Of a stretch of DNA of 64,000 nucleotides, positions 6,613-10,523 are shown one piece after another. Made by a program: the position numbers and the translations under genes. A model generated the notes under the pieces. The model was not told the DNA's origin. It did no database searches and saw only the letters and a list, made by a program, of their open reading frames with translations. The stretch is from a virus, in the IMG/VR virus record IMGVR_UViG_3300024255_000017, positions 1-64,000 of that record. One strand, written 5' to 3'. Positions within the stretch are counted from its first letter, which is position 1. The number at the start of each line of letters is the position of its first letter.

Positions 6613-6697
6613 GCCGTTGTGATGGAATTGGTAGACATGACAGACTTAAAATCTGTTGGGCTGAAAGCCCGTGGCGGTTCGATTCCGCCCAGCGGTA
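6613..6697 (+). tRNA. tRNA-Leu(TAA)
   Basis: Cloverleaf, ACAGA-CTTAAAA-TCTGT anticodon arm, long variable arm GGGCTGAAAGCCC, GGTTCGATTCC; CCA not encoded. Confidence 0.95.
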
Positions 6698-7229: not shown

Positions 7230-7303
7230 GGACTCGTAGCTCAGCTGGATAGAGCATCGCCCTTCTAAGGCGACGGTCATAGGTTCGAATCCTATCGGGT
7301 TCA
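7230..7303 (+). tRNA. tRNA-Arg(TCT)
   Basis: GCTCAGCTGGATAGAGC D arm, TCGCC-CTTCTAA-GGCGA anticodon arm, GGTTCGAATCC. Confidence 0.95.
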
Positions 7304-7322: not shown

Positions 7323-7811
7323 ATGGTAGAATATAAAAATAGATACGGAGACGTATATACGTTTACAAAACAAGAAGATGGTTCAGTCCTATGGGAAGGT
7401 TCTTTTGAACACTGTAGATTTGGAAGCTCTAATGATTATAAATTAGCATATCAGAATTACTGTAAAGATAGTTCAGGGATGGGAATTCACCCAATGCATA
7501 TTGAAGATTTTAAAGAAGCGATTCATGAAAGTGTATATGACGAAAACGATCATTATGTAGGACCTAGCGTTATTGGAAAACAATACCAAAACCTTGTGAA
7601 ATCAAATCCATGGATTAGTATGGTAGATCCAAGCGGAGGCCCTTACATTAACGAACATTCTAAACTAGATATTTTTGGTAAAGAACTAAAAGGATTATGT
7701 GTTAGGAGTTTTGAGGTGATTGAAACAGGATATAAGATTAACACATACAATGAGTTTGACCATTTAGCTGATACTAAAATCATTGGTGGTATAATTAATA
7801 CTTCTGAATAG
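7323..7811 (+). CDS. Hypothetical phage protein
   Basis: ORF track; YKNRYGD and MVDPSGGPYI motifs. Confidence 0.8.
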   Translation: MVEYKNRYGDVYTFTKQEDGSVLWEGSFEHCRFGSSNDYKLAYQNYCKDSSGMGIHPMHIEDFKEAIHESVYDENDHYVGPSVIGKQYQNLVKSNPWISMVDPSGGPYINEHSKLDIFGKELKGLCVRSFEVIETGYKINTYNEFDHLADTKIIGGIINTSE

Positions 7812-7878
7812 TGAAACTATTTTTAAACTAAGTATATAATAATAAATTCAAACGAATTAATACGTTCTTTAAAATTAT

Positions 7879-8307
7879 GGGAAGGCACAGAACGGAAAAC
7901 TTTAGGTAGCTCCTAGATGATTATTCCAATTATGTGTAGATGCGTTGCTGAAAAATTCCTGAGCAAAAGGGAATAAGGCACTAAGCTAGAACGATGGTTC
8001 ACTGATATCTCAAATGAGAAATTCAGAATTGGTTAATCACCAGAGCATTAGGTTTAACGCATTAAAAATCTAACAGAGATTTTGCAAAGACTTCCAGGTA
8101 AGCATACCGCTGAACCCTGGTTAATGACTGAACAACGCAAAGAGTATGTGGCGTAAGGTACACTTGAAGATTATGATAATCAATTACGATGATTAAGCCT
8201 CGGCCGGTTTAATTAAGTAATAGGACGGCAGTCCAAAGAGTGGTAGTCTATCATAAAGCAGCTTTCGTTAATAAAGGTATTCTCAAATCCTTTCGCATCG
8301 TCTTCCC
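7879..8307 (+). ncRNA. Large (~430 nt) structured ncRNA, possibly GOLLD/ROOL-class
   Basis: ORF-free gap with its own promoter (7814-7840); closing stems GGGAAGGC/GTCTTCCC and GATGCG/CGCATC; several internal hairpins including GGAC-GGCA-GTCC (GNRA); T-run after; lies within the tRNA cluster. Confidence 0.7.
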
Positions 8308-8328
8308 TTTTTTATTAAATCAATCAAT

Positions 8329-8880
8329 ATGGCAAAAGTAAAAACAATTACACTAAACGGTAAAGCTACCGAGTATGATGTTCAATACACTAAAGCGTAT
8401 GTGGCAAAAATCATCTCAGCTCAATCAGACTTGTACCAAGAATTAAACGCAGTATCACTTCCATACAATACAGTAAAAGAAATTTATGTTGATGGGCATT
8501 TAACTGCTGAGTTGGTAGGTACTAGTTTATTATATGTTAAGGAAAAACCTAAACATGATCCTTATGTAGATCGCCATGAACCACCAAATGCAGGTATGGG
8601 TAGATATAAAGGTCATACAGTTCCAGAAGTTCCAGAAGAGTTTGATGAATCACATGCATTAGACATGGTTTTAAATGACATGATTGAATCTATGACCGAT
8701 GAAGAATTAGAGGAATTTTATAAAAACGAAAATCCACCTGAACCGTTTGCTACCGATGTAGAGTTAGCGGAGATGAAAAATGAATCCAAAGGTATTTACT
8801 TACAGAGTGTTTCTTCACCTCCACCTTACTGGGTAACTGATACTACGGCTGGAAATGTAGATATAACCTACACTAACTAA
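8329..8880 (+). CDS. Acidic hypothetical protein
   Basis: ORF track. Confidence 0.75.
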   Translation: MAKVKTITLNGKATEYDVQYTKAYVAKIISAQSDLYQELNAVSLPYNTVKEIYVDGHLTAELVGTSLLYVKEKPKHDPYVDRHEPPNAGMGRYKGHTVPEVPEEFDESHALDMVLNDMIESMTDEELEEFYKNENPPEPFATDVELAEMKNESKGIYLQSVSSPPPYWVTDTTAGNVDITYTN

Positions 8881-9986: not shown

Positions 9987-10019
9987 AAAACCCAGGATTC
10001 TAGGACCCTGGGTTTTTTT
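9987..10019 (+). terminator. Intrinsic terminator
   Basis: AAAACCCAGG...CCTGGGTTTTTTT. Confidence 0.85.
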
Positions 10020-10095
10020 GTGCTTAAACTATTCATCATTTAGGTATATAATAATAAATAAGGAATGAACTTTATTTTGTAAAAAAAACAAACAA

Positions 10096-10440
10096 ATGGA
10101 AATATTTTATTACACTTTAGGTATACTATCGGTTCTTGTAGTCATTGGGATTTTTGGTATGGTTAAGGTTTGGAACAAAATTTCAGAAATTGAATTTTCT
10201 GGAGAAGACATGGAAGAATACATTGGCGATACTGCTGATGATTTTTCTGGTGAGTTAGAAAAATTACAATACCACTTTGAGGCAGAGGTTGAAAGATTAG
10301 AAAGAAACTTTGGAGATGAATCTGAAGGCTTAAGTAGATTGATTGATTCAAGAATTGATAACCTTCACAATACCCTCATTAAAAAAATTGAAAATTTAGA
10401 AGGCACTATAGCTAGGCTAATTGTAAAAGACAATAGGTAA
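10096..10440 (+). CDS. Membrane-anchored coiled-coil protein
   Basis: N-terminal TM, heptad-like acidic C-terminus. Confidence 0.75.
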   Translation: MEIFYYTLGILSVLVVIGIFGMVKVWNKISEIEFSGEDMEEYIGDTADDFSGELEKLQYHFEAEVERLERNFGDESEGLSRLIDSRIDNLHNTLIKKIENLEGTIARLIVKDNR

Positions 10441-10450
10441 GTAATTACCA

Positions 10451-10523
10451 TGTGCTGTGGTGTAACTGGCAACACGTCTGTTTTTGGTACAGAAGAGTCG
10501 GGGTTCGAGCCCCTGCGGCACAA
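10451..10523 (+). tRNA. tRNA-Gln(TTG)
   Basis: TGTGCTG/CGGCACA acceptor, TCTGT-TTTTGGT-ACAGA anticodon arm, GGTTCGAGCC. Confidence 0.9.

What the first reader, a model, noticed from the sequence alone, without database searches (positions are those of the whole stretch)
7814..8313. ~430-nt ornate non-coding RNA with its own promoter and a boxA-like leader
Seen: an ORF-free gap with a middle-type promoter and GTTCTTTAAAA (7864-7874, boxA-like). The RNA is closed by GGGAAGGC/GTCTTCCC and GATGCG/CGCATC, with internal hairpins (CTGA..TCTC-AAAT-GAGA..TCAG, TTAG..TTAA-CGCA-TTAA..CTAA, CCAGG..CCTGG, GGAC-GGCA-GTCC, AAAGG-TATTCTCAAAT-CCTTT) and a T-run. It lacks RNase P and tmRNA hallmarks. Established: GOLLD and ROOL are large structured RNAs often found near phage tRNA genes. 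Inference: a compact relative of these or a new class, transcribed with rRNA-style antitermination.
Basis: partly seen in the sequence, partly recalled or inferred. Interest (0 to 1): 0.75.

Follow-up and report, generated by a model that had tools for sequence, protein, structure and literature searches.

The report
Fused double manA-like phage RNA
The flagged gap in this uncultured marine phage holds a real, abundant, roughly 440-base folded RNA made of two interlocked copies of the known "manA" RNA, a motif recently reported to build RNA-only cages; its role in infection is still unknown.

Summary
The ORF-free gap is real and holds a structured RNA on the + strand, about 7873-8312. It is 86-97% identical in relatives whose downstream protein is only 52-81% identical. 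My 128-pair model is 96.8% canonical over 18 distinct sequences. 46 pairs show two-sided changes, against 5-8 in slid controls.

It is neither GOLLD nor ROOL. Each half matches Rfam manA (RF01745) below threshold: half I at 25.6 and 29.6 bits, half II at 14 and 29.0 bits. Each half has a CUGAA/UAAGG module, a three-hairpin junction and a GGUA...AAUCC hairpin. The "long hairpin" strands are swapped between the halves (P3, P4), and shared helices P1 and P0 wrap both.

Metatranscriptome contigs cover it at far higher depth than the flanking DNA (2386 against 5-13 in one run). One contig is circularly permuted, joining 8312 to 7873.

What follows the RNA varies: geneB, a tRNA, or a tmRNA-like gene. 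This favours a free-standing RNA over a gene switch.

This scan has reported double manA-like RNAs before on other DNA. I found no paper describing one. Function is untested.

The parts
7825..7847 (+). Conserved promoter-like block (AAACTAAGTATATAATAATAAAT)
   Evidence: Nearly invariant (one variable column) in 8 aligned relatives. Unique in the window at up to 3 mismatches. A looser copy lies at 10026-10059, upstream of ORF 10096. Function as a promoter is inferred; the sigma-70 scan is not above chance.
7846..7859 (+). Small leader hairpin AATTC-AAAC-GAATT
   Evidence: It covaries (AATCC..GGATT) in relatives. L101 and L194 carry larger, different hairpins at this spot. It is absent from three of the four RNA-run contigs laid. 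Probably a processed leader (inference).
7861..7878 (+).
   Evidence: The motif varies among relatives. RNA-run contigs begin at 7863 (X18) and 7873 (X16 joint).
7873..8312 (+). The accumulated RNA, about 440 nt
   Evidence: The X16 contig closes on itself, joining 8312 to 7873 (unit 440). The X18 contig covers 7863-8258 at depth 2386. The X17 contig covers 7889-8296.
7879..7886 (+). P0, 5' strand (pairs with 8300-8307)
   Evidence: 103/108 cells canonical over the six outer pairs (7879-7884 with 8302-8307). There is a G-C to G-U change, and L093 has AAGGAC/GTTCCTT.
7885..7937 (+). 5' hairpin (P0a-c)
   Evidence: Shortened in L194 and replaced by a different hairpin in L093.
7939..7944 (+). 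P1, 5' strand (pairs with 8294-8299); encloses both halves
   Evidence: 108/108 cells canonical; 3 pairs show two-sided changes.
7947..7979 (+). Half I module M1: GCU-GAAAAA-[hairpin]-UAA-GGC
   Evidence: Aligned to the manA CUGAAUAA...UAAGG module by cmscan. The stem covaries in L093.
7981..8051 (+). Half I junction: closing helix P2 with hairpins H1 (loop GAUG), H2 (loop AAAU) and H3 (loop UUAAUCA)
   Evidence: P2 has 5 pairs with two-sided changes. The same loop motifs occur in the same order in short manA-like RNAs.
8054..8060 (+). P3 strand a1 (pairs with b2, 8265-8271): long-range swapped helix
   Evidence: UUAACG/CGUUAA becomes UCAAUGC/GCAUUGA (L101) and UUAACGU/ACGUUAA (L152). 6 of 7 pairs show two-sided changes.
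8066..8082 (+). P3a inner hairpin of half I
   Evidence: No covariation; L093 has a different hairpin there.
8088..8092 (+). P4 strand b1 (pairs with a2, 8245-8249): second swapped helix
   Evidence: AGACU/AGUCU becomes AGACA/UGUCU in L093. The unswapped alternative loses a pair wherever the sequence varies.
8094..8120 (+). P5: GGUA hairpin of half I
   Evidence: CCAGG/CCUGG becomes CUAGG/CCUAG and UUAGG/CCUAA. Aligned to the manA GGGUA hairpin.
8127..8159 (+). Half II module M2: ACU-GAACAA-[hairpin]-UAA-GGU
   Evidence: The same module, with a freely covarying hairpin, occurs in about 30 short manA-like RNAs. The M2 stem changes CGC/GCG to CAC/GUG in L152 and L146.
8161..8242 (+). Half II junction: closing helix P6 with H1', H2' (invariant loop UCGGCC, 8200-8205) and H3' (loop GGCA)
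   Evidence: H1', H2' and H3' all covary. The loop UCGGCC is identical in every row shown.
8254..8263 (+). Invariant unpaired UAAAGCAGCU between a2 and b2
   Evidence: Invariant in the viral set, including L093 and L101. The metagenome rows were selected with this motif, so their invariance is not independent.
8273..8293 (+). P7: GGUA...AAUCC hairpin of half II
   Evidence: AAAGG/CCUUU becomes GAAGG/CCUUC. Aligned to the manA terminal hairpin in L093.
8308..8313 (+). U-run abutting P0; 3' end
   Evidence: A U-run follows the RNA in 38 of 40 distinct contexts. The X16 contig joint places the end at 8312.

Best explanation
A stand-alone phage RNA gene. Its product is an abundant, roughly 440-nt RNA (about 7873-8312, + strand) made of two manA-like cores fused into one chain.

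Each half has a CUGAA.../UAAGG internal-loop module, a helix-closed junction of three hairpins, and a GGUA...AAUCC hairpin. The two strands that form the 'long hairpin' of an ordinary manA RNA are exchanged between the halves (P3 is a1-b2, P4 is b1-a2). Two shared helices (P1, P0) clamp the whole fold and bring the 5' and 3' ends together next to a U-run.

Shown here: conservation, covariation, manA likeness of both halves, high depth in RNA libraries, and variable downstream neighbours.

Inferred: it arose by tandem duplication of a manA-like RNA. It acts in trans as a structural RNA. Like single manA RNAs in vitro, it probably uses exposed invariant loops (for example the self-complementary UCGGCC) to bind further copies. 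It does not switch the gene behind it.
For: Conservation: the RNA is 86-97% identical in relatives, while geneB is 52-81% and geneA 77-90% identical at the protein level.

Covariation: 128 pairs, 96.8% canonical, 46 pairs with two-sided changes against 5-8 in slid controls. The swapped helices are kept by compensatory changes, while the unswapped alternative breaks.

Rfam manA hits on both halves in different homologues:
- window half I, 25.6 bits, E 2e-4
- L101 half I, 29.6 bits
- L093 half II, 29.0 bits, E 4.8e-6
- window half II, 14 bits, E 0.14

Short RNAs sharing the half II module score 39.5 bits against manA.

RNA-run contigs: depth 2386 against 5-13 for flanking contigs in X18, and 97.5 against 0-4 in X16.

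Downstream neighbour: of 40 distinct contexts, 28 have geneB directly. The other 12 have tRNA-Gly, another ORF, tRNA-Gln or a tmRNA-like gene first.

Self-assembly of manA RNAs was shown in vitro by cryo-EM in preprint 10.64898/2026.07.01.735769 (sections 5, 7 and 8 read).
Against: - No half reaches the manA gathering score (55.2 bits), and the window's half II alone is not significant.
- Depth comes from contigs of runs that were chosen because they hold this stretch. The tool itself warns that this is a poor measure of expression.
- One RNA-run contig (X9) runs through both flanks.
- geneB follows directly in 28 of 40 contexts and is never seen without the RNA upstream where upstream DNA is held (17 of 17 loci). 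A cis role is therefore not excluded.
- Self-assembly of this RNA is untested, and no in vivo role is known even for single manA RNAs.
Confidence: 0.6

Rival explanations
1. It is a cis-acting leader: a tandem-aptamer riboswitch or attenuator. Ligand-dependent formation of P0 next to the U-run would terminate transcription ahead of geneB.
For: manA was proposed as a riboswitch candidate in 5' UTRs (PMC2864571, section 'manA and wcaG motifs' read). The short relatives sit directly before a Shine-Dalgarno sequence and an ATG. geneB starts 16-25 nt after the RNA in 28 of 40 contexts. P0 abuts a U-run.
Against: The RNA is kept where geneB is absent or displaced: tRNA-Gly at +6/7, another ORF with geneB at +711, tRNA-Gln at +99, or a tmRNA-like gene. 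It lies in a tRNA island. No alternative anti-terminator pairing was found. No ligand is known for manA in 16 years (inference).
Confidence: 0.22
2. It is a new RNA class unrelated to manA. The likeness would come from convergent use of common tertiary motifs, namely a UAA/GAN-type internal loop (name recalled) and GGUA loops.
For: All manA scores are below the gathering threshold. The best-conserved shared piece is one short module.
Against: Full-length model alignments place the module, junction, long hairpin and terminal hairpin in the same order in both halves. Intermediate short forms score 39.5 bits. They share the GAUG, AAAU and UAAUCA motifs in the same order.
Confidence: 0.08
3. One reading: a compact GOLLD/ROOL relative transcribed with boxA-dependent, rRNA-style antitermination.
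For: Its size, ornate fold and tRNA-rich phage context resemble what is described for GOLLD and ROOL (recalled). GTTCTTTAAAA looks like boxA.
Against: There is no GOLLD or ROOL match at E <= 10. The motif varies in relatives and lies at or outside the 5' end of the RNA contigs.
Confidence: 0.03

Closest known systems
manA RNA motif (Rfam RF01745; Weinberg et al. 2010, PMC2864571; cryo-EM assemblies in preprint 10.64898/2026.07.01.735769)
   Same: Both are from marine phages and metagenomes. The elements come in the same order: a CUGAA.../UAAGG module, a helix-closed three-hairpin junction, a long hairpin, a GGUA...AAUCC hairpin and an outer closing helix. Both halves are recognised by the Rfam model at E of 1e-3 to 5e-6.
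   Different: This RNA has two cores in one 440-nt chain. The long-hairpin strands are swapped between the cores, and shared outer helices enclose both. There is an extra 5' hairpin. Scores are below the gathering threshold. It lies in a tRNA island, is followed by a U-run, and its downstream neighbours vary. It is not reliably a 5' UTR.
Short sub-threshold manA-like RNAs of other IMG/VR phages (L051, L057, L058, L077, L079, L092 types)
   Same: The module is nearly identical to half II (UGACUGAACAAC-hairpin-GUAAGGUACAC). The GAUG, AAAU and UAAUCA motifs occur in the same order as the loops of half I.
   Different: They are single cores of about 190 nt, with reduced junction hairpins, lying directly before a Shine-Dalgarno sequence and an ATG.
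GOLLD, ROOL and OLE large ornate RNAs (Kretsch et al. 2025, PMC12286853; search listing and start of abstract seen)
   Same: They are large bacterial or phage-associated RNAs of unknown function that form RNA-only homo-oligomers. The association of GOLLD and ROOL with tRNA-rich phage regions is recalled, not checked here.
   Different: There is no sequence or structure match. This RNA is smaller and is built from manA-like cores.
Tandem glycine riboswitch (recalled; not checked here)
   Same: Two homologous RNA domains in one chain that contact each other.
   Different: There, each aptamer keeps its own helices and a ligand is known. Here the helix strands are exchanged between the halves and no ligand is known.

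Membership tests
manA RNA (RF01745) | Score at or above the Rfam gathering threshold (55.2 bits) | tested here: not met
   Window half I 25.6 bits, half II 14 bits; L101 half I 29.6 bits; L093 half II 29.0 bits.
manA RNA (RF01745) | CUGAAUAA...[hairpin]...UAAGG internal-loop module | tested here: met
   Present twice, at 7947-7979 and 8127-8159. Aligned to the model. The stems covary.
manA RNA (RF01745) | Helix-closed junction carrying three hairpins after the module | tested here: met
   P2 with H1-H3, and P6 with H1'-H3'. All covary except H1.
manA RNA (RF01745) | Local long hairpin between the junction and the terminal hairpin | tested here: inconclusive
   The strands are present but pair across the halves (P3, P4) in the window-type and L101-type sequences. 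In L093, b2 also fits a2.
manA RNA (RF01745) | Terminal hairpin with a GGUA...AAUCC loop | tested here: met
   P7 (GGUAUUCUCAAAUCC) and P5 (GGUAAGC...AACCC).
manA RNA (RF01745) | Outer helix enclosing the core (the [[[[[ ]]]]] pairs in the model's structure line) | tested here: met
   P1 (7939-7944/8294-8299) covaries, but it encloses both halves. Reading those brackets as nested pairs rests on recalled notation.
manA RNA (RF01745) | Position in the 5' UTR of a gene | tested here: inconclusive
   geneB follows directly in 28 of 40 contexts. A tRNA, another ORF or a tmRNA-like gene follows in the rest.
manA RNA (RF01745) | Self-assembly into pentamer-based closed oligomers | not testable with these tools
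   Known only from in vitro cryo-EM of single manA RNAs.
GOLLD / ROOL | Match to the Rfam covariance models | tested here: not met
   Neither family matched at E <= 10 in the 901-nt scan, nor at gathering score in the window.
boxA antitermination leader | A conserved boxA sequence inside the transcript, upstream of the structured RNA | tested here: not met
   The motif varies and lies at or before the 5' ends of the RNA contigs. NusB/NusE binding is not testable here.

The most novel reading that the evidence does not exclude
The RNA is a natural covalent, strand-swapped dimer of the cage-forming manA fold. In infected cells it would assemble into RNA-only oligomers or shells. It may even be closed into a circle: its two ends meet at helix P0, and one metatranscriptome contig joins 8312 to 7873. 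That would make it a phage-made RNA nano-compartment or scaffold in the ocean.
Probability: 0.2. Interest if true: 0.85.

Novelty: new variant of a known kind. Interest (0 to 1): 0.6.

Why it matters
manA was an orphan 'riboswitch candidate' for 16 years. In 2026 it was reported to self-assemble in vitro into decamers and a 60-subunit cage, with no known biology.

A natural version exists in which two cores are fused and interlocked. It is kept under strong selection, is abundant in ocean RNA libraries, and sits among tRNA genes instead of in a fixed 5' UTR. This argues that core-to-core contact of manA RNAs matters in nature, and that these RNAs are products in their own right.

It also gives structural biologists a defined construct (7873-8312) for testing how fusion changes the assembly geometry.

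Tried and rejected
- GenBank phage records: no blastn or tblastn match for the gap, for either flanking protein, or for a short-type RNA.
- geneA relatives: 13 of the 26 loci from the geneA search hold no copy of the RNA. For 10 of them (L029, L035-L039, L043-L045, L047) there is also no manA hit. One, L029, has 87% identical geneA.
- Bacterial and archaeal genomes: 48 pattern matches, none of which holds the RNA by nhmmer, so they are chance matches. The same pattern in metagenomes gave 118 or more stretches, of which 45 loci are real.
- The genome search with RF01745 on the phage's own record found nothing. The controls rang nowhere, so this result is uninformative.
- RNA ligase search, prompted by the circular joint: no RtcB. 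There is a weak PF09414 match (23.9 bits, below cut-off) inside a 445-aa ORF that is probably the DNA ligase. The record is only about 31% of the genome.
- geneA and geneB: no Pfam or PHROG family. The geneB AlphaFold model has mean pLDDT 58.9. Foldseek against the PDB gave no hit at E <= 0.001.
- Short-type alignment: RNAalifold gave a poor consensus because I trimmed off the last hairpin. I built no covariance model from it.
- mafft-qinsi is not installed. I therefore realigned the H2/H3 block with regular expressions.
- Loop-loop contacts: I looked by eye for contacts within the RNA and found nothing convincing.
- Host: not tested. The Bacteroidota guess comes only from first-stage notes.
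- Supplementary files of PMC2864571 and of the preprint could not be seen. They may list tandem manA examples.

Full report
**What is there.** The window belongs to an 81-kb IMG/VR virus record estimated to be 31% complete. Positions 7812-8328 hold no ORF above 33 aa. They lie between two + strand genes of unknown family: geneA (7323-7811) and geneB (8329-8880). The region is a tRNA island, with tRNA-Leu at 6613, tRNA-Arg at 7230 and tRNA-Gln at 10451. At gathering thresholds Rfam finds only the tRNAs. The + strand folds better than shuffled sequence (z = -1.99). The - strand does not (z = +0.11).

**Conservation.** Searching IMG/VR with the two flanking proteins gave 46 loci. nhmmer found the gap sequence in 30 of them, which reduce to 12 distinct sequences plus the window's own. 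These are 86-97% identical to the window at the nucleotide level. geneB is only 52-81% identical at the protein level, and geneA 77-90%. A non-coding stretch better conserved than the neighbouring proteins is under its own selection.

**Wider family.** A pattern built on the most invariant module returned 52 loci:
- the known relatives;
- one divergent full-length homologue (L093);
- about 30 short RNAs of roughly 190 nt that share UGACUGAACAAC-[hairpin]-GUAAGGUACAC, where the hairpin covaries freely;
- three apparent chance hits in coding DNA (L062, L069, L088).

Two further patterns added L101 and 45 metagenome loci. None of the 48 matches in bacterial and archaeal genomes was real.

**Structure.** I built a curated alignment of 19 rows, 18 of them distinct. 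On it I scored a model of 25 helices and 128 pairs.
- 96.8% of cells are canonical pairs.
- 46 pairs show a change on both sides.
- Sliding the 3' partner by 1-3 columns gives 34-48% canonical cells and 5-8 such pairs.
- Caveats: the 5' part of L093 is not alignable, which adds some noise to P0 and P0a-c. The metagenome rows were selected with two short motifs.

The hairpin TTAG..TTAA-CGCA-TTAA..CTAA is not supported: it breaks in most variants. Instead:
- UUAACG (8054-8059) pairs with CGUUAA (8266-8271). This changes to UCAAUGC/GCAUUGA in L101 and UUAACGU/ACGUUAA in L152 and L146.
- AGACU (8088-8092) pairs with AGUCU (8245-8249). This changes to AGACA/UGUCU in L093.

**Identity.** A permissive Rfam scan matched 7927-8125 to manA (RF01745) over the full model: 25.6 bits, E 2e-4, against a gathering score of 55.2. 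The 3' half alone (8111-8298) gave 14 bits, E 0.14. Different homologues show different halves:
- L101: half I, 29.6 bits.
- L093: half II, 29.0 bits, E 6e-4 in 27 kb and E 4.8e-6 in 216 nt.
- Short RNA L051: 39.5 bits, E 7.7e-9.

Element by element, each half has:
- a CUGAA.../UAAGG module (the name UAA/GAN-type internal loop is recalled);
- a helix-closed junction of three hairpins;
- a GGUA...AAUCC hairpin.

The loop motifs of half I (GAUG, AAAU, UAAUCA) recur in the same order in the short forms. The strands that make one local 'long hairpin' in manA here pair across the halves (P3 is a1-b2, P4 is b1-a2). A tandem duplication allows exactly this, because a1 resembles a2 and b1 resembles b2. 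Helix P1 corresponds to the outer helix of manA but encloses both halves. P0 and a 5' hairpin are extra. GOLLD and ROOL did not match at E <= 10.

**Expression.** Twenty public runs hold the stretch, and six are recorded as RNA. I laid contigs of four metatranscriptomes:

| Run | Contig cover | Contig depth | Flanking depth |
|---|---|---|---|
| X18 | 7863-8258 | 2386 | 5-13 |
| X16 | 470 nt, permuted: 8096-8312 joined to 7873-8125 | 97.5 | 0-4 |
| X17 | 7889-8296 | 12 | none |
| X9 | 7569-8586, into both genes | 169 | not compared |

In X16 the 30-nt overlap between the contig's ends means it forms a closed cycle of 440 nt.

The tool warns that contig depth, in runs chosen for holding this stretch, is a poor measure of expression. 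I therefore treat this as suggestive. The 8312|7873 joint places the ends in the U-run and in the A/U-rich linker. It could reflect a real circle, or template switching or ligation of an abundant RNA whose ends lie side by side at P0. Only one of the four runs shows it.

**Leader and promoter.** The block 7825-7847 is nearly invariant in relatives (one variable column). A looser copy lies before ORF 10096. Between that block and the RNA sits a small hairpin that covaries. In L101 and L194 a larger, different hairpin replaces it. This suggests a transcribed leader that is trimmed off (inference). The 'boxA-like' motif varies, and it lies at or before the 5' ends seen in RNA contigs.

**Context.** There are 40 distinct combinations of the RNA with its 200 nt of downstream sequence:
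- 28: geneB within 30 nt.
- 4: tRNA-Gly at +6/7, then geneB.
- 4: another ORF, with geneB at +711.
- 1: a geneB-like ORF at +150.
- 1: tRNA-Gln at +99 and no geneB (L101).
- 2: neither. L093 has a 117-nt tmRNA-like gene (Rfam 54.9 bits; ARAGORN finds none). L146 holds only 228 nt of downstream DNA.

A U-run follows the RNA in 38 of the 40. geneB gave no fold match.

**Mechanism.** Most likely this is a free-standing structural RNA, a covalent interlocked manA dimer. A 2026 preprint shows that single manA RNAs form pentamer-based decamers and a 60-mer cage through kissing loops. It does not mention tandem forms, tRNA or any in vivo role. The invariant self-complementary loop UCGGCC and other invariant loops are candidate contact points (inference). 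A cis-regulatory role for geneB remains possible (about 0.2).

**Novelty.** Library searches for manA RNA, manA motif, RF01745 and tandem manA found no description of a fused form. Supplements could not be read. This scan's earlier notes describe double manA-like RNAs in other phage windows, including one that shares 36 of 81 words with this RNA. I reached the same reading before consulting them.

Noticed in passing
L093 4806-4922 (same element in L201): Directly after the divergent double-manA RNA lies a 117-nt element that matches Rfam tmRNA (54.9 bits, model 1-374), although ARAGORN calls nothing. It may be a miniature tmRNA-like gene with a very short message part.
   Followed up: partly
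window 7873-8312 (run X16): One metatranscriptome contig is a closed 440-nt cycle joining 8312 to 7873. It is either circular RNA or a template-switch or ligation artefact of an abundant RNA whose ends meet at P0.
   Followed up: partly
L051, L057, L058, L077, L079, L092 and about 25 other IMG/VR loci: These are short manA-like RNAs of about 190 nt that Rfam misses at its gathering score (L051 scores 39.5 bits). They lie directly before a Shine-Dalgarno sequence and a start codon, so the manA model under-covers the family.
   Followed up: partly
L054 (192-kb IMG/VR contig), - strand around 7516-7684: A manA-like RNA sits inside a cluster of nine tRNA genes. A second GUGACUGAAAAG...GGUAAUC stretch lies just downstream and could be another copy.
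   Followed up: no
window 10000-10060: A second copy of the promoter-like block (TAAACTATT...GGTATATAATAATAAAT) follows a T-run and precedes ORF 10096-10440.
   Followed up: partly
L127, L142, L163, L167: In these relatives a tRNA-Gly gene lies 6-7 nt after the RNA's U-run, between the RNA and geneB.
   Followed up: partly
L101 and L194, about 100 nt between the RNA and tRNA-Gln: In this lineage the U-run is missing. A spacer with its own hairpins (GGCCACC...GGTG) and a later T-run links the RNA to tRNA-Gln, which suggests co-transcription and processing.
   Followed up: no
window 8329-8880 (geneB): The protein has a conserved N-terminal beta-alpha-beta domain (residues 1-75, pLDDT about 80), a variable acidic linker, and an invariant C-terminal IYLQSV..PPYWV.DTT motif. 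It has no known family or fold match.
   Followed up: partly
L029 3001-3794: In a contig with 87% identical geneA, a different small ORF follows geneA directly and the RNA is not at that position. The RNA is thus an insertion or deletion difference between close relatives.
   Followed up: no
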